In this document: positions 10,477-34,947 of the stretch, piece after piece
Layout of the letters: every line of letters starts with the position of its first letter
Position numbering within the stretch: the stretch's first letter is position 1
Source: Escherichia coli
GTDB lineage: Bacteria; Pseudomonadota; Gammaproteobacteria; Enterobacterales; Enterobacteriaceae
Reading direction: 5' to 3' (one strand)
DNA: 64,000 nucleotides
NCBI RefSeq assembly: GCF_011045215.1
Contig: NZ_CP049201.1
Program-made: the position numbers and the translations under genes
The notes under the pieces: model-generated
What the model was told of the DNA's origin: nothing
Seen by the model: only the letters and a program-made list of their open reading frames with translations
Databases searched by the model: none

Positions 10477-11189
10477 CTCTTATAATTGGCATTATTCATT
10501 CAAGAACAATAGGATCTTCGCTTGTACAAGCGAAGCTATAATAAAAACAATCAATTAATTATTTTAAAAGTATTAAACAAGAACCTATTGACATTCATAA
10601 AATACAAGTTATTTATAATGTATGCCATAAATAAAAAGTTTTATGTCATATGTATCCTGCACTATGTGCAGTTAATGTACCACTTGTCCCATAGATGGGA
10701 ATATTGGAAAGGTTACTTTGTTTTGAAGTAGCCTTTCGTCCTTCAATATTAACGATTACTTATTGCTATTACCAAGTCCAGTCGAATCGAAGAACATCTT
10801 TTATCTGAAACGACTCCTAATACCCGGTTAAAGCCACAATAACTCTCGCATACGTAGACCAAAGAAAAATTATGATATTAAATATGTGATTTTTTTTAGT
10901 GTTAAGTTGAATAATTAAATACTGGAGAGTTTTCTGTGCACTACCAATTGCTGGTTCATCTGTTCTGCCGCTGATGTTTCTGACGAATCTCCCGGTGACA
11001 CAGAACTGTCCCTCTCTACCAGCCTTTATTCGACTCAATGTCCGGCTGCTGATACGCAGTTATCCCTTCGTATCAATGACTGACACTTAAACGTAATGCT
11101 TTGGTTGCTGGCGTATCTGACAGCTTCTTCGGCGTGAAGGTCGTTGTGTAAGTATACTTCTTGGTTTATTTAGGCTATATAAAACATGA

Positions 11190-12086
11190 CTATGACTTGC
11201 TGTTTTCAGTAAGAGTCTTATCATCCAAAGAATTTATTCTAGAAATTCTTTTTAACTCATTAAGATAATCAACCTCGTTTTCTAAGAACCAATGAAGAAC
11301 TTTAGAATTGCCAAGTAATTTATTAATATATGACTGGATTATAACGAATTTCAACATATCTGAACCATACTCGGTTTGAAGCTTTTTCGTTTCTTCCGAA
11401 GTTGTTGCCATTTCTTGTTCCAGACGAAGTATGGTTTTTTTTATATCCTTTTTATAGGGAGTGTTTTTCCCTTTATTTACTATCATCGATGCCGGTGTTG
11501 CATCCAAGATGCTCATTGCAAATTTTTTACTATAATTATCAAAATTAATCATTGTACCGACTGCTTCAATTTGGCGAATTGGCTTCATTTTCCTCAAAAC
11601 GTCAAATGTAGCCTTAGGTATAGGTTTATCAGAAAGTTTCGCAATTACACTTGGATCTATGCCGTTCATCACATTCGCTTTATCTTTTATGGCATCAACA
11701 GATATGCCCAAAGCAGCACTAAGTTTTTCAATTGATACTTTTGCCAGAGACTTAATTATCATTCTATGTTCTTCAACTACATTTATATGATTCACTTGTT
11801 TGTTAGGAGTGAAAGCATCATCTATGCTCGAAAGTATACATGGAGCTTTTTCTATACCTAAGTCTTTTAAAGCCTCAACCCTTAAATGGCCATCAAGTAT
11901 CTTAGTGACATCTTTATCTTTGTCATAGAATACTATTATTGGTTCAATAATACCTAAGCTTTCGATAGAGGTAACTATTTGATGATATTTATGGCTTCGC
12001 TTTACGTTTTCTAATAATTCCTTAGATGGAATTAACTTATTAGTTTCCAGGTAAATAAAATTATCGCCAAAACGTATCTGAATCAT
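11190..12086 (-). CDS. ParB/sulfiredoxin-fold N-terminal domain protein, 298 aa (third gene of recombinase operon)
   Basis: ParB-N-like motifs: SIESLGIIEPIIV...KILDGHLRVEALKDLG; 4-nt overlap with upstream gene. Confidence 0.6.
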   Translation of the reverse strand: MIQIRFGDNFIYLETNKLIPSKELLENVKRSHKYHQIVTSIESLGIIEPIIVFYDKDKDVTKILDGHLRVEALKDLGIEKAPCILSSIDDAFTPNKQVNHINVVEEHRMIIKSLAKVSIEKLSAALGISVDAIKDKANVMNGIDPSVIAKLSDKPIPKATFDVLRKMKPIRQIEAVGTMINFDNYSKKFAMSILDATPASMIVNKGKNTPYKKDIKKTILRLEQEMATTSEETKKLQTEYGSDMLKFVIIQSYINKLLGNSKVLHWFLENEVDYLNELKRISRINSLDDKTLTENSKS

Positions 12087-12979
12087 TTTAATACCTCTTT
12101 GTTTACTGGGGTTAATATCTGAGATGGTAGTTCTGAAAGATTCTCTTGTTCAAGTATATGTTGAAAGCTTTTATTCATCATTATGATGTTAAAAATCTCA
12201 TTTACTATTAGTAGGTTGGTTTTTATGAATTTTGAGTTGTTATAAACAGATTTATGTTCAGCGATACTATTTTCATAAAGCTCAATCAACTCCTCTGCAG
12301 TCATCCTTTTTGATGGTTTGTGATAATAAAATCCGGCTGCTTTTGCACCTTTATTCCCAACTGTTCTTTGATTTAGAATGTGTTTTATCTTTATAATGTC
12401 CCGACTTTTTATTAATTTTTTATCATATGCTTCGGTAAGAATATCTTGTGCTTCCTCAGTTTCACATCTTGCAAATTGCACTGCGAGATACAGAGGCAAA
12501 TTACCCCGTTCGACTGCTGAGAGAAGTTTATGCTCTCCCTTATCAAGTAGCATATTAATACTGCTCACCCAGTTCGATGAATATCCAGTAATCTCACTTA
12601 TTTCGGAGTCTGAAAGTCCTCTGATTTTCATGTCTTTAATCACCTGTAATAACTCATTAGAACGTGGTCTTCTCCTTGCAATGTTTTCAACTAAACTCAT
12701 AACGTAAGCATCTTCTTCTGATACATCTCTTATAATTGCTGGAATAATAGTTTCACCTAATGCAACGAGAGCCTCTATTCTCCCTTGACCACAAATTAAA
12801 GCATATTTGAAATCGCCTTCATCAATAGCTCTTACGCTTATAGGCTTGCTTAATCCTCTTTTTTTTATGCTTTCCTTTATTTCTTCATGCACTAACTTAT
12901 TTCTTGTTCGTGGGTTAAGAAATTTTATTTTTGCAATCTCAATTTGAATTATTGGGAATTCATTTTTTTCAGGCAGCAT
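12083..12979 (-). CDS. ParB-like N-terminal domain protein, 298 aa (second gene of recombinase operon)
   Basis: ParB-N-like layout: IEIAKIKFLNPRTRN...SIKKRGLSKPISVRAIDEG.FKYALICGQGRIEALVALGETIIPAIIRDVSEEDAYVMSLVENIARRR; 11-nt overlap with recombinase gene. Confidence 0.65.
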   Translation of the reverse strand: MLPEKNEFPIIQIEIAKIKFLNPRTRNKLVHEEIKESIKKRGLSKPISVRAIDEGDFKYALICGQGRIEALVALGETIIPAIIRDVSEEDAYVMSLVENIARRRPRSNELLQVIKDMKIRGLSDSEISEITGYSSNWVSSINMLLDKGEHKLLSAVERGNLPLYLAVQFARCETEEAQDILTEAYDKKLIKSRDIIKIKHILNQRTVGNKGAKAAGFYYHKPSKRMTAEELIELYENSIAEHKSVYNNSKFIKTNLLIVNEIFNIIMMNKSFQHILEQENLSELPSQILTPVNKEVLK

Positions 12980-14525
12980 ATAGTTCCCTCACTTTCATGC
13001 GAGTAATAATTTGTAGAAGTTTATCAAGATTATCAAATCTATAGAGATCTAATCGAATGTTGTTTGTTTCCGTCATGCACATTTTATTATATTCGTTTTC
13101 AATCTTTGGTATGATATAAAAATCAAGAGGTGAAATATTTTGTGAATTCATTCGTATAACAATTGTTATGTCTGCTTTCTGTGAGTTATCAAACCGGACT
13201 TTCCATCTAAGTTTACCTGATTTCATATGTATGCATTTAGTAACAAGGACGGAAATTAAAAACTCATCATTGATGTAAAGCATTGGGGCATATTTATACT
13301 CGTCTATATGACAGTTACTTTTTAAAATTTCACCCTTAAAATCCTCAATTATCTCTGAGTGAAATGATCTTAGTGCTTCATTTATTTTGAGATAGCTGTA
13401 ATCATGTTCTGGCTTATAACCAATCAAAGTATATGCTCTTAAAAGACCACCAAATCGGGTTCTATAAACAGAAGATGAAGGGCCTGTATCATCTTCATCA
13501 ATGATAAAGCCTGATAGTTTTCCATTAGATTCTAATTTTTGTTTTAGTTTTTCTAATAGATCTTCATTAGTCAAATGAATGGATCGGAGCTGAATTATTT
13601 CTTGAGCTTTATTGTATTTTTTCTTTGAAATAATAGGTTTATATGCCTTGTCACATCTAACCCATTCATGTTTGGGGTTTTTTACAAGCCTACTTTTTAA
13701 TTTAGATGAGGTTTTGTTATATATGTTGTTTCCAATATATTTTTCATTTGTCAAAATTTGATGTATTTTTGCACGAGTCCATAATGTTCCATTTTCTGCA
13801 GGTATGTTCTGTTCATTTAATCTCTCAGCAATAATGAATTCTGGGACGTTATTATCTATAAAGAGATCATATATTCTATTTACAATTTTTATTTCATTTT
13901 TTGGTCCCGGAATTAATATTACCCTATCTGTTTGAATACTCTTTCTTTTGCGGAAACTCAATATTTCTTTAGCTATGCCATTTTCGTCTACTAAAAGACG
14001 TCTCAGCCCATAACCAGCCATACCGCCTTGATGATAACCAAGCTTTATTAAATTTACTTGCCCTATAAATACCTTTTCAGATAAATTCCTGCTGTGATAT
14101 GCAGCACTAGATCTTTTTATATTCAGTATAACAGAGGACTCTAAAGGGAAATCTTTAGTGGGTATAGGTTCGGAACAATATATAAGATCTACACCATTTC
14201 TCTCAAATAGAAAGGAATAATATGCCGCTTCATCACTATTTTGAAAACGACCAAAACGGCTCACATCATAAAATAATACAGCCTGTATATCTATTTTCTT
14301 TTGTTCTACATCGCTAAGTAACTGCTGCAAAGAATGCCTGCCTACGATACTGACTCCGCTCTTACCTGCATCATCGTAGGTATAAGCGATTTCCATATTG
14401 TTCTTTTCAGCATAATCTTTGATATATTCGGACTGATTATGTAAAGAATATTGCTGATGGTCGGTAGACATCCTCAAGTACTGCGCGACCCTAACTCTAT
14501 GATTTTTGTCATTTTCGCTAGCCAT
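12969..14525 (-). CDS. Large serine recombinase (resolvase/invertase catalytic domain plus long C-terminal extension), 518 aa
   Basis: N-terminal serine-recombinase motifs (YLRMSTDHQ with candidate catalytic Ser, YDDAGKSG, VLFYDVSRFGR); size fits large serine recombinases, not small invertases. Confidence 0.75.
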   Translation of the reverse strand: MASENDKNHRVRVAQYLRMSTDHQQYSLHNQSEYIKDYAEKNNMEIAYTYDDAGKSGVSIVGRHSLQQLLSDVEQKKIDIQAVLFYDVSRFGRFQNSDEAAYYSFLFERNGVDLIYCSEPIPTKDFPLESSVILNIKRSSAAYHSRNLSEKVFIGQVNLIKLGYHQGGMAGYGLRRLLVDENGIAKEILSFRKRKSIQTDRVILIPGPKNEIKIVNRIYDLFIDNNVPEFIIAERLNEQNIPAENGTLWTRAKIHQILTNEKYIGNNIYNKTSSKLKSRLVKNPKHEWVRCDKAYKPIISKKKYNKAQEIIQLRSIHLTNEDLLEKLKQKLESNGKLSGFIIDEDDTGPSSSVYRTRFGGLLRAYTLIGYKPEHDYSYLKINEALRSFHSEIIEDFKGEILKSNCHIDEYKYAPMLYINDEFLISVLVTKCIHMKSGKLRWKVRFDNSQKADITIVIRMNSQNISPLDFYIIPKIENEYNKMCMTETNNIRLDLYRFDNLDKLLQIITRMKVRELYAA

Positions 14526-14696
14526 GCACGAAACCTCATGGGTGATTCAATACAATGTAGAGGATAAAATTGATCAAATTTTAACCGAATTCAACTGTTT
14601 TATCATTGATTAGAGCGAATTTGGTAGATCTTCGAGGTGTATGATAATCGAGAAGAGATGTGAATTATTTAGCTGATATGACCGACAGCTTTCGTT

Positions 14697-14744
14697 ATGT
14701 GGACTCAATGTCCCCATTTGTAAATGGCTATGCTTAGTCCACAT
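14697..14744. promoter_or_regulatory. Nested palindromic site upstream of the serine recombinase gene (candidate recombination site or operator)
   Basis: Perfect 9-bp inverted repeat atgtggact (14697-14705) / agtccacat (14736-14744) around inner palindrome ccatttgtaaatgg; 172 bp upstream of the recombinase start. Confidence 0.5.
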
Positions 14745-14807
14745 AGGTTAATGGTGTGATTATTAATTCTTTAACTAAATCAAGATAGTTAATCCATCAT
14801 GGGAGAG

Positions 14808-16037
14808 TTATGCGGCAATAACTTTGCATTTTTGAGACGAAACATAGTCACTCCACCATTGCATGAGAACCACCCGTTCAGTGAGATACTCTGCACGATT
14901 GTAGGCTGCAATTATTTCATCTTTCTTCGAGTGGGCAAGGGCGGCTTCTAAGACATCAGTCCTAAACTTGCCAGACTCCTCAGCAGCCGTTCTAGCAATG
15001 GATCGCATACCGTGAGCTACAAGCTCACCTCCGAAACCCATACGGATTATGGCCGCATTAGCTGTTTGTTCATGCATGTGATTGAGTGGAGCTTTGATAC
15101 TGGGGAACACCCACTCTCTATGCCCGCTGATGACTTTCATTAAATCCAAAACTCGCAAAGCTTCTTTGCTCAGTGGAACTTTGTGAGGCTTCTTCATTTT
15201 CATAAACTCCGCCGGGATGTTCCACATGCCAGTTTCAATATCAATATCTGACCATCTTGTGCGAACAGCTTCACCTGGGCGAACCCATGTGAGAAGTTGC
15301 CACTCAATCAGTAGCCTTGTTTCCAAACGGATAGAAGCATTGTTTAGAGCAACCAAGAAGCGAGGGAGTTCGGAAGGGGGTAATGCTGGCATATTCTGTT
15401 TTTTTGGCTTGCTGAACCGTTGCCCCAGGTTGTCTGCCGGGTTGAATTCTATGAGTTCTTCTGTTGCTGCATAGCGGAAAATTTCATTCAGGCGGGATAT
15501 GATGCGGCGAAGTGTTTCAAGGACACCTCGTTTTTCTATGGGTTCTAAATGCTGTTTAAGCATTTTAGGGCGAATCTCCTTAATTGGGGTATCACCCAAT
15601 GTGGAAAAGATATTTCTCTCTAGGCTTCGCCAGATGTCGTTAGCATGATCTTGGGAGATGCCTGACGTTTTGACTTTCTCATCAAGCCACTTCTTGGCTA
15701 CTGCTTGAAATGTATGTTCCGTGGCATCTTTCAGTGCATTGGCTTTTTGGTTGTTATGAACTTGGGGGTCTATACCATTTGTAAGCAACGACAAGTATTC
15801 ATCACGTAAAGCTCGTGCCTTCGCAAGTGTAAGGTGAGGATAGGTTCCTAAGCTCACCTTAGTTCGCTTTTTGGTCACAGGCACTGCATATCTGAAATAC
15901 CAATTTTTCTTCCCTCCCTTCGCCAGGGGAGCGATTCGCAACAGCAAACCATCGCCGTCAAAAAGGTTAACCTCTTTTTCGGCAGGTTTGGTGCTTTTGA
16001 TTTCAGTGTCAGTGAGCTTCTTAGCGATTTTGGCCAT
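14808..16037 (-). CDS. int: Site-specific tyrosine integrase (P4-type), next to ssrA
   Basis: ORF 14808..16118; likely start is Met at 16037 (MAKIAKKLTDTEIK...); C-terminal catalytic region with conserved R...H.xR...Y context (HGMRSIARTAAEE...ALAHSKKDEI..AYNRAEY); classic tmRNA-site location. Confidence 0.85.
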   Translation of the reverse strand: MAKIAKKLTDTEIKSTKPAEKEVNLFDGDGLLLRIAPLAKGGKKNWYFRYAVPVTKKRTKVSLGTYPHLTLAKARALRDEYLSLLTNGIDPQVHNNQKANALKDATEHTFQAVAKKWLDEKVKTSGISQDHANDIWRSLERNIFSTLGDTPIKEIRPKMLKQHLEPIEKRGVLETLRRIISRLNEIFRYAATEELIEFNPADNLGQRFSKPKKQNMPALPPSELPRFLVALNNASIRLETRLLIEWQLLTWVRPGEAVRTRWSDIDIETGMWNIPAEFMKMKKPHKVPLSKEALRVLDLMKVISGHREWVFPSIKAPLNHMHEQTANAAIIRMGFGGELVAHGMRSIARTAAEESGKFRTDVLEAALAHSKKDEIIAAYNRAEYLTERVVLMQWWSDYVSSQKCKVIAA

Positions 16038-16203
16038 GTTTGGGACCCTCGATTTTAGGACCCATCTTCGTGGGTCCCATTCAGGGTGCCATAACTCGTA
16101 GTTCTCAGCAATTCTCACTAGACTACAATAGACGTAAAAAAGCCCGCAGAGCTTGTGCTGTGCGGGCTTAGTAGACTTTACTGAACTTCAGTACATCAAT
16201 ATT

Positions 16204-16565
16204 TGGTGGAGCTGGCGGGAGTTGAACCCGCGTCCGAAATTCCTACATCCTCGGTACTACATGCTTAGTCAGTCTTTACATTCGCTTGCCAGCTGCGGAC
16301 GGACACGCCACTAACAAACTAGCCTGATTAAGTTTTAACGCTTCAACCCCAGGCAGGGCTTCCACGCGATCTCTTTTGGGTTTGACCTCTCTTGATCCCC
16401 GTCCTAAGAGCGGAGGCTAGGGAGAGAGGGCTCTAAGCAGGTTATTAAGCTGCTAAAGCGTAGTTTTCGTCGTTTGCGACTATTTTTTGCGGCTTTTTAC
16501 GAGGCCAACCGCCCCTCGGCATGCACCTTGGGTTTCGCAAATCCCGTCGAATCCAGAATCAGCCC
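16204..16565 (-). ncRNA. ssrA: tmRNA (SsrA), transfer-messenger RNA
   Basis: Reverse complement of 16565 downward begins GGGGCTGATTCTGGATTCGACGGG; 3' end ...GCTCCACCA is the reverse complement of 16204-16212; tag ORF ANDENYALAA region recognisable. Confidence 0.95.
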
Positions 16566-16780
16566 CAATGTGTAAAGGTAAGTATACCAGATTTATGAGC
16601 GCCATGACCAGCCTCAATGGCGTTATCGTTAAAGATTTAGCACCCATGTAGCCTGATTTTTATTCGATTAAGCAATGGGATGGCAACATTTGTGTCGGAT
16701 GTGATAGCCAATAAGATGTTCATTCGCGCCGCCGGAGAGGGAGGCGCGGTGAGGAACTGGTCAATAATTGGAGTGCAGGT

Positions 16781-34551: not shown

Positions 34552-34947
<396 letters not shown>

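What the first reader, a model, noticed from the sequence alone, without database searches (positions are those of the whole stretch)
14697..14744. Nested perfect palindrome upstream of the serine recombinase gene: candidate crossover site or operator
A 9-bp perfect inverted repeat (atgtggact ... agtccacat) flanks a 30-bp spacer that itself contains the palindrome ccatttgtaaatgg. The site lies 172 bp upstream of the recombinase start, in the 282-bp gap between recombinase and integrase genes. Serine recombinase sites are typically imperfect palindromes around a central dinucleotide, so this could be an attachment or inversion site, or an autoregulatory operator.
Basis: seen in the sequence. 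Interest (0 to 1): 0.55.

Follow-up and report, generated by a model that had tools for sequence, protein, structure and literature searches.

The report
Lopsided palindrome upstream of island recombinase
A real 50-bp near-palindrome sits between the integrase and serine-recombinase genes of a mobilizable E. coli defence island at the tmRNA gene; it looks like a protein-binding site, but only one half is conserved and nothing shows that DNA is cut and rejoined there.

Summary
At 14696-14745 lies a 50-bp quasi-palindrome: 10-bp perfect outer arms, 6-bp perfect inner arms, the same centre (GT, 14720-21), 18/24 positions complementary. It lies in the 282-bp gap between a P4-like tyrosine integrase and a large serine recombinase that heads a recombinase-ParB-ParB operon. 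The island is integrated at ssrA in E. coli and is present in 658 of 5426 complete genomes.

It is not a terminator: there is no T-run and no compensatory change in 16 pairs.

Tests for a crossover site were negative. There is no second copy or half-site in the window, in 181 kb of related islands, or at ~20-nt sensitivity in any of the 658 genomes. No genome or contig has a breakpoint inside the site.

The two halves evolve differently. The int-proximal half is nearly invariant. The rec-proximal half is the most polymorphic stretch of the gap and drifts at about the neutral rate. Distant relatives of the operon have no comparable site.

Best reading (0.35): a dyad-type protein-binding site for an island protein, probably the recombinase, used for regulation or synapsis, with only one half under constraint. 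Rivals are a decaying relic, a ParB loading site and an RNA hairpin. Interest is modest. The conserved, apparently undescribed recombinase-ParB-ParB trio next to variable defence cargo is the more interesting by-product.

The parts
14696..14745 (.). 50-bp quasi-palindrome, the finding itself: two 24-nt arms, 18/24 complementary, around GT
14696..14705 (.). Left outer arm TATGTGGACT. Positions 14699 and 14703 are polymorphic. A at 14703, which makes the arm perfect, occurs in 10 of 27 distinct sequences; the exact window 60-mer is in 489/658 genomes
14706..14719 (.). Left spacer plus left inner arm (CAATGTCC CCATTT): the most polymorphic stretch of the intergenic gap (pi 0.13-0.22, about the 4-fold-site level)
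14720..14721 (.). Central dinucleotide GT, invariant in 27 distinct sequences
14722..14745 (.). Right, int-proximal half AAATGGCTATGCTTAGTCCACATA, nearly invariant (pi 0.015-0.023), including its non-symmetric spacer
   Evidence: independent anchor
12969..14525 (-). Large serine recombinase (518 aa): resolvase catalytic domain plus Recombinase domain. The C-terminal third is beta-rich. Pfam reports no third, zinc-ribbon-type domain, and the model shows no long paired helices (coiled coil)
12083..12979 (-). ParB-like protein 1 (ParB_N + RepB domains), second gene of the operon
11190..12086 (-). ParB-like protein 2 (ParB_N + RepB domains), third gene of the operon
14808..16118 (-). P4-like tyrosine integrase of the island (longest ORF 436 aa; RefSeq annotates a 409-aa product). 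Its stop codon lies 62 nt from the palindrome
16204..16566 (-). ssrA (tmRNA), the integration target of the island
14578..14606 (-). Only sigma-70-like match facing rec (ATGATA-17-TAAAAT). It is a weak consensus match and does not overlap the palindrome

Best explanation
The palindrome is a dyad-type protein-binding site in the control region between the integrase and the recombinase-ParB-ParB operon of a mobilizable island. The most likely ligand is a dimer of the island's own large serine recombinase.

On this reading each half-site offers an inner block (CCATTT) next to the central GT and an outer block (TATGTGGACT) 8 bp further out. That matches the bipartite way large serine recombinases read a half-site. 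Binding would serve regulation or synapsis rather than a routinely used crossover. Examples are autoregulation, or holding and resolving the excised circular island, either of which needs only one site per element.

Shown: the sequence, its symmetry, its uniqueness, its constant presence in the island, and the absence of terminator features.

Inferred: that a protein binds it, which protein, and what follows from binding. In the present population only the int-proximal half is under purifying selection.
For: - The geometry is 50 bp, with a central dinucleotide invariant in 27 distinct sequences and two co-centred symmetric blocks per half.
- Such symmetry is rare by chance: 0.11 sites per 64 kb in simulations.
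- The site lies directly upstream of a gene whose product has the resolvase and Recombinase domains. The AlphaFold model of that product best matches the SPbeta, Bxb1 and phiC31 integrases.
- The site is present in every island copy examined: 654/658 genomes carry at least 80% of the 60-mer, and so does the most divergent lineage (88% recombinase identity, L118/L133).
- Dyad symmetry stays at 14-18/24 in all 13 site variants (counted by hand).
- In the left half the symmetric blocks vary somewhat less (pi 0.075-0.13) than the non-symmetric spacer (0.19).
- One copy per element is what a regulatory or resolution site needs.
Against: - The rec-proximal half is the most polymorphic 24-bp stretch of the gap. 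Its pi is 0.127-0.142, against 0.037 for the rest of the gap and 0.108-0.19 at 4-fold sites, so it shows no detectable constraint.
- The difference between symmetric and non-symmetric positions within that half rests on few sites and was not tested for significance.
- There is no partner site and no recombinant junction.
- The change in tree signal between the rec and int sides lies at about 14540-14650, not at the site centre.
- Pfam reports no zinc-ribbon domain, and the model shows no obvious coiled coil. The attP/attB logic may therefore not apply.
- 80 distant recombinase-ParB-ParB loci have no comparable palindrome upstream; the best scores, 12-17/24, are about chance level.
- The only predicted promoter does not overlap the site.
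Confidence: 0.35

Rival explanations
1. Relic or drifting quasi-palindrome. The dyad no longer works as a unit. It may be a fossil of an old recombinase or ParB site, or partly a product of local sequence exchange. On this reading only the int-proximal half, together with the rest of the constrained gap, carries some other signal.
For: - The left half evolves at the neutral rate and is the diversity maximum of the gap.
- Every change in the paired positions is disruptive and none is compensated.
- The perfect arms belong to one haplotype. The three bases that separate it from the commonest other haplotype (14703, 14709, 14712) all fall inside a 12-mer, GACTCAATGTCC, that is identical to 11032-11043 in the same island. 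This could be a short conversion patch.
- There is no equivalent site in distant relatives.
Against: - 18/24 symmetry is rare by chance.
- Symmetry is kept at 14-18/24 in all lineages, including one with about 10% flank divergence whose site differs from the window's at a single base.
- The left outer arm is invariant at 8 of 10 positions.
- The central GT never varies.
Confidence: 0.27
2. Loading site or operator for the two ParB/RepB-like proteins of the operon, of the parS, KorB OB or BisD bisS kind. The inner CCATTT-GT-AAATGG dyad would be the core.
For: - Two ParB_N + RepB proteins are encoded just downstream.
- ParB-like regulators of integrative elements do load at near-palindromic sites: BisD on bisS in ICEclc (PMC12409273).
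- Some distant trio loci carry palindrome arrays or operator-like palindromes near the operon. L021 has three copies of GAAGTATATATACTTC just after ParB2. Several beta-proteobacterial loci have CCATAYGAATTTTCRTATGG at about -600 to -660.
Against: - The inner left arm is polymorphic: 14719 is T/C in 8 of 27 sequences, and 14714, 14715 and 14718 also vary.
- The arms are only 6 bp.
- The 10-bp outer arms, 30 bp apart, are left unexplained.
- There is a single copy.
- The island has a better-looking candidate, the perfect 20-bp palindrome CTTCGCTTGTACAAGCGAAG at 10516-10535.
Confidence: 0.17
3. Active crossover site (attachment, inversion or resolution) of the serine recombinase.
For: - The attP-like length and architecture.
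- The invariant central dinucleotide.
- The position next to the recombinase gene.
- Resolution of island dimers would need one site per copy and would leave no trace in assembled genomes.
Against: - There is no partner site in the window, in related islands, or in 658 complete genomes.
- No attL/attR-type junction and no inverted arrangement were seen.
- One half-site is unconstrained.
- Mosaic boundaries are not centred on the site.
- No canonical zinc-ribbon domain or coiled coil was detected in the recombinase.
Confidence: 0.12
4. RNA hairpin in the 3' untranslated region of int or the 5' leader of rec, acting as a terminator, stabiliser or processing site.
For: - The site starts 62 nt after the int stop.
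- The minus-strand RNA folds to -20.7 kcal/mol, z = -2.5, with 1 of 200 shuffles folding as well.
Against: - The region has no terminator-like site and no T-run after the stem.
- 0 of 16 pairs show a compensatory change, and 8 pairs depart only by mismatches.
- 17 of 27 distinct sequences have a mismatch inside the outer stem.
- There is no Rfam match.
Confidence: 0.06

Closest known systems
Simple attachment sites of large serine recombinases (phiC31, Bxb1, A118/LI attP). Comparison from my own knowledge of the published sites and of the LI integrase-attP half-site structure, not from a tool
   Same: About 50 bp; imperfect dyad around a 2-bp crossover dinucleotide; outer perfect inverted repeats of 9-10 bp plus an inner symmetric block, separated by non-symmetric bases; located beside the recombinase gene.
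   Different: No partner (attB-like) site and no attL/attR junction in about 700 copies; one half-site unconstrained; the recombinase here has no detectable zinc-ribbon or coiled-coil module; the island is integrated by a different enzyme, a tyrosine integrase at ssrA.
res sites and resolvase operators of Tn3/gamma-delta type, and plasmid multimer-resolution systems such as RK2 parCBA (from my own knowledge)
   Same: A cis site in the intergenic region upstream of a serine recombinase gene; one copy per replicon; could serve both regulation and resolution; in RK2 the resolvase is encoded in a plasmid stability operon.
   Different: No three-subsite architecture sharing one motif; the recombinase is of the large type; the site does not overlap the predicted promoter.
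ParB-family loading sites on mobile elements: parS, KorB OB, BisD bisS of ICEclc (PMC12409273)
   Same: A palindromic site on an integrative element that encodes ParB-like proteins, so loading followed by spreading or regulation is conceivable.
   Different: Known sites are contiguous 13-23-bp palindromes conserved in both arms. Here the contiguous core is only 6+2+6 bp, and its left arm varies.

Membership tests
Large serine recombinase attachment site (attP/attB type) | 40-50-bp imperfect inverted repeat around a central crossover dinucleotide | tested here: met
   24-nt arms, 18/24 complementary, around GT; GT invariant
Large serine recombinase attachment site (attP/attB type) | A partner site exists, and recombinant (attL/attR) junctions or rearranged forms are found | tested here: not met
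   No second copy or half-site; one place per genome in 658 genomes; all 35 contigs found through the right half keep the left half
Large serine recombinase attachment site (attP/attB type) | Both half-sites are recognised, and hence constrained | tested here: not met
   Left half pi 0.127-0.142, about the 4-fold-site level; right half 0.015-0.023
Large serine recombinase attachment site (attP/attB type) | The cognate enzyme has a catalytic domain, a recombinase domain, and a zinc-ribbon domain with a coiled coil | tested here: inconclusive
   Resolvase and Recombinase domains found. The fold matches SPbeta, Bxb1 and phiC31 integrases over about 320-360 residues. The C-terminal 380-518 is beta-rich, with no zinc-ribbon Pfam hit and no long paired helices
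Large serine recombinase attachment site (attP/attB type) | Binding and strand exchange by the recombinase | not testable with these tools
   Needs EMSA or footprinting and in vivo or in vitro recombination assays
res-type resolution site / resolvase operator | Several subsites that share the recombinase-binding motif and overlap the recombinase promoter | tested here: not met
   Outside the site only one weak 7/9 match (14658), at chance level; the predicted promoter 14578-14606 is separate
ParB loading site (parS / bisS / OB) | A contiguous palindrome of about 13-23 bp conserved in both arms | tested here: not met
   The core is 6+2+6 bp; the left inner arm is polymorphic at 4 of 6 positions
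ParB loading site (parS / bisS / OB) | A ParB-family protein is encoded nearby | tested here: met
   Two ParB_N + RepB proteins
Intrinsic (rho-independent) terminator | G+C-rich stem, short loop, T-run | tested here: not met
   0 terminator-like sites in 14300-15000; 30-nt interior; no T-run in the sequence
Conserved RNA or DNA hairpin | Pairing maintained by compensatory changes | tested here: not met
   0 of 16 pairs changed on both sides; 8 pairs depart only by mismatches

The most novel reading that the evidence does not exclude
The recombinase-ParB-ParB trio may be an undescribed, self-contained module of proteobacterial islands and plasmids. It is conserved as a three-gene operon from alpha- to gamma-proteobacteria, has a sharp boundary after the second ParB gene, and repeatedly sits next to variable defence cargo. 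On this reading the palindrome is its cis-acting site in the E. coli lineage: a place where the recombinase and/or the ParB-like clamps assemble to control maintenance of the excised island or exchange of the neighbouring cargo. The drifting half would reflect changing specificity rather than decay.
Probability: 0.12. Interest if true: 0.65.

Novelty: new member of a known kind. Interest (0 to 1): 0.3.

Why it matters
If the site is bound by the recombinase or by the ParB-like proteins, it would be the first cis element tied to a three-gene module. That module is in 12% of complete E. coli genomes, including BL21, and in many other proteobacteria and plasmids. It sits at the edge of exchangeable anti-phage cargo, and I found no paper describing it in six full-text searches. 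That would give an experimental handle on how such mobilizable defence islands are kept or rebuilt.

As it stands, the palindrome is an ordinary-looking candidate binding site with ambiguous comparative support. It should not be annotated as an att or inversion site.

Tried and rejected
1. Terminator: rejected.
2. Known RNA family: only tmRNA-related hits and a far-sub-threshold IsrM match beside ssrA in 9500-16700.
3. Second copy or half-site: none in the window, in related islands or in 658 genomes. Degenerate partners below about 20 matching bases genome-wide could not be searched.
4. Same region on plasmids or phages: no match.
5. Truncated copies as evidence of site-specific breakage: the one I inspected (H60/L085) ends at about 14750 beside an IS3 copy, so it is not informative.
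6. Conserved palindrome upstream of rec in 80 distant loci: none above chance.
7. Recurrent motifs upstream of rec in alpha- and beta-proteobacteria (AAGATGGGCAC, ATTGCAAAGATGGAC): they lie mostly inside small upstream genes and encode peptide repeats (PKMGT, IAKMD). Their likeness to the E. coli core CCATTTGTAAATGG is too short to trust.
8. Recombination boundary at the site centre: the discordance minimum is at about 14540-14650 instead.
9. res-like multi-subsite layout: not supported.
10. Anti-phage system membership of the trio: no significant PADLOC match beyond the ParB-like domain of methyltransferase models.
11. Literature: six full-text searches found no description of this island module or site.

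Caveat: most population sequences were fetched with a 20-mer from the right half. That biases this half towards invariance. A subset free of that bias (11 distinct sequences) gave the same asymmetry.

Full report
**Context.** The window is E. coli chromosome. ARAGORN and Rfam place ssrA (tmRNA, tag ANDENYALAA) at 16204-16566 on the minus strand. Running away from its 3' end, all on the minus strand, are these genes:
- a P4-like tyrosine integrase, 14808-16118;
- a 518-aa serine recombinase, 12969-14525 (Resolvase + Recombinase domains);
- two 298-aa ParB_N + RepB proteins, 12083-12979 and 11190-12086;
- about 1.6 kb without ORFs;
- a type I restriction-modification system.

The 282-bp integrase-recombinase gap is found in 658 of 5426 complete E. 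coli genomes, always chromosomal. Annotated relatives show the same int-rec-parB-parB module followed by different cargo: type I R-M plus Kiwa, an Hxs cassette, NACHT plus RelA/SpoT. After the cargo comes an ankyrin/relaxase module. This is therefore a mobilizable defence island at the tmRNA hotspot, which is hotspot #9 of PMC10121019.

**The observation.** The outer arms are 10 bp rather than 9. The inner 'palindrome' is a 6-bp inverted repeat around GT. Both repeats share one centre, which gives a 50-bp quasi-palindrome at 14696-14745 with 18/24 complementary positions. Only one other site in the window reaches that score, and it has the stem and flanking A/T runs of a two-way terminator. 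Markov simulations give 0.11 such sites per 64 kb.

**Not a terminator or conserved hairpin.** No terminator-like site is predicted in 14300-15000, and the sequence has no T-run after the stem. The RNA fold is only moderately better than shuffles (z = -2.5). In 12 distinct site variants none of the 16 pairs shows a compensatory change, and eight pairs depart only by mismatches. There is no Rfam match at the site.

**No partner and no junction.**
- Neither the arm, nor the core, nor the bipartite half-site recurs in the window beyond chance.
- A 24-nt half-site scan of 181 kb (window plus four related islands) finds only the site itself, apart from one chance-level 7-mismatch match at 34779.
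- A 60-mer search of 658 complete genomes finds exactly one place per genome. The sensitivity is about 20 matching bases.
- 654 of the 658 genomes carry at least 80% of the 60-mer.
- The one truncated copy I inspected ends beside an IS3 copy.
- All 35 metagenome and viral contigs fetched through the right half carry the left half next to it.
- The region is absent from the plasmid and phage collections.

**Lopsided conservation.** I aligned 38 copies (27 distinct). Diversity by segment:

| Segment | pi |
|---|---|
| Left half, 14696-14719 | 0.127 (10 of 24 columns variable) |
| Rest of the gap on the rec side, 14526-14695 | 0.037 |
| Right half, 14722-14745 | 0.015 |
| 4-fold degenerate sites of rec | 0.108 |
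| 4-fold degenerate sites of int | 0.19 |

The left half is thus the diversity maximum of the gap, and it evolves at about the neutral rate. Because most copies were fetched with a right-half 20-mer, I repeated the count on copies found by BLAST or by an independent anchor. The result was 0.142 for the left half against 0.023 for the right.

Variation is concentrated at 14703 and at 14709-14719. The central GT never varies. Dyad symmetry ranges from 14 to 18 of 24 among variants (hand count). The perfect arms belong to one haplotype, which is nevertheless the commonest in genomes (489/658). That haplotype recurs in lineages whose flanks differ by 4-11%. The change in tree signal between the rec side and the int side lies at about 14540-14650, not at the site centre.

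**The gene trio.** The recombinase has full-length homologues at 35-46% identity in very many proteobacteria. In 80 genome loci the recombinase is followed by the two ParB-like genes in nearly every locus whose contig extends far enough. The tyrosine integrase is not conserved there, and the flanks are unrelated. The trio also lies on 67 plasmids. One is Agrobacterium pAtC58, where it sits between an AbiE-type toxin and a Fic gene. Pairs of related loci lose homology sharply just after the second ParB gene.

None of these distant loci has a comparable 50-bp palindrome upstream of the recombinase gene. The AlphaFold model (pLDDT 82.7) matches the SPbeta, Bxb1 and phiC31 integrases over the catalytic and recombinase domains. 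It ends in a beta-rich domain with no zinc-ribbon hit and no obvious coiled coil.

**Interpretation.** The architecture and position argue for a dyad-type protein-binding site. The bipartite half-sites fit a large serine recombinase better than a ParB helix-turn-helix dimer. Against this, every test for actual recombination was negative, half of the site is unconstrained, and the site is specific to this lineage.

I therefore rank the readings as follows:
1. A binding site used for regulation or synapsis: 0.35.
2. A relic or drifting quasi-palindrome whose right half has another role: 0.27.
3. A ParB loading site or operator: 0.17. There is a precedent in BisD/bisS, PMC12409273.
4. An active crossover site: 0.12.
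5. An RNA hairpin: 0.06.

The remainder is left to unknown host factors.

**Verdict.** The feature is real and of a known kind, its function is unproven, and it should not be annotated as att or inversion site. BL21 carries an identical copy, so the decisive binding and deletion experiments are easy to do.

Noticed in passing
window 11190-14525 (-); loci L005-L084, L122, L136-L202: The serine recombinase plus two ParB/RepB-like genes form a conserved three-gene operon across alpha-, beta-, gamma- and delta-proteobacteria and on 67 plasmids, including pAtC58. Flanks are unrelated, homology ends sharply just after the second ParB gene, and the neighbours are often defence or toxin genes (Fic, AbiE, HsdR). 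There is no PADLOC match, and six literature searches found no description.
   Followed up: partly
window 10412-11190: About 0.78 kb downstream of the second ParB gene has no ORF of 50 aa or more, yet is 96-99% conserved in island variants with different cargo. Homology starts abruptly at about 10412 within nested inverted repeats (CTTTTCT/AGAAAAG; AGCAAGGG/CCCTTGCT). This is the junction between the conserved module and the cargo. No Rfam match.
   Followed up: partly
window 10516-10535: A perfect 20-bp palindrome, CTTCGCTTGTACAAGCGAAG, lies inside that conserved non-coding stretch and is invariant in four variants. It is a better-looking parS-type candidate for the ParB-like proteins than the finding itself.
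   Followed up: no
window 11032-11043 and 14702-14713: A 12-mer, GACTCAATGTCC, is identical and in the same orientation at both places (about 0.03 such matches expected by my estimate). The downstream copy is invariant whatever the palindrome haplotype. The three bases that distinguish the window's left arm from the commonest other haplotype all lie within it. This may be a short conversion patch or a coincidence.
   Followed up: partly
window 14566-14581: A palindrome, AAAATTGATCAAATTT, with a GATC (Dam) centre overlaps the -10 element of the only sigma-70-like match facing rec. It is a more conventional operator position than the finding.
   Followed up: no
L015, L016, L039, L055, L064, L065, L072, L079 (about 200-360 bp upstream of rec): Beta-proteobacterial trio loci have a small upstream gene with a Cys-rich N-terminus and NPDYWRxYR repeats. 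Its 3' end carries two direct repeats, ATTGCAAAGATGGACGTGT (peptide IAKMD), and a third degenerate copy lies beyond the stop codon, where homology between some loci begins. Alpha-proteobacterial loci have a divergent small gene, whose product looks like a DNA-binding regulator by eye (no family search was run), with AAGATGGGCAC repeats (peptide PKMGT).
   Followed up: partly
L021 about +3360 to +3520 from the rec start; L042, L145, L151, L162, L168 about -600 to -660: Three copies of the palindrome GAAGTATATATACTTC lie just after the second ParB gene in an Advenella locus, like a centromere array. A 20-bp palindrome, CCATAYGAATTTTCRTATGG, lies upstream of the four-gene operon in several beta-type loci. 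Palindromes are enriched in the -750 to -500 bin (24 in 143 loci).
   Followed up: no
window 3601-6840 (-) and 3178-3555 (+): The type I restriction subunit R is split into two ORFs (379 and 681 aa), whereas E24377A has one 1079-aa gene. This is probably a frameshift or pseudogene. An IS1 transposase fragment lies just beyond it.
   Followed up: no
L002 (E. coli FDN-11, NZ_CP158143.1): The palindrome-rec-parB-parB-cargo segment, with a truncated integrase, lies in an island at the yfdC tRNA-Arg locus instead of ssrA. This is evidence that the module moves or recombines between islands. The palindrome there is the most degraded variant (14/24).
   Followed up: partly
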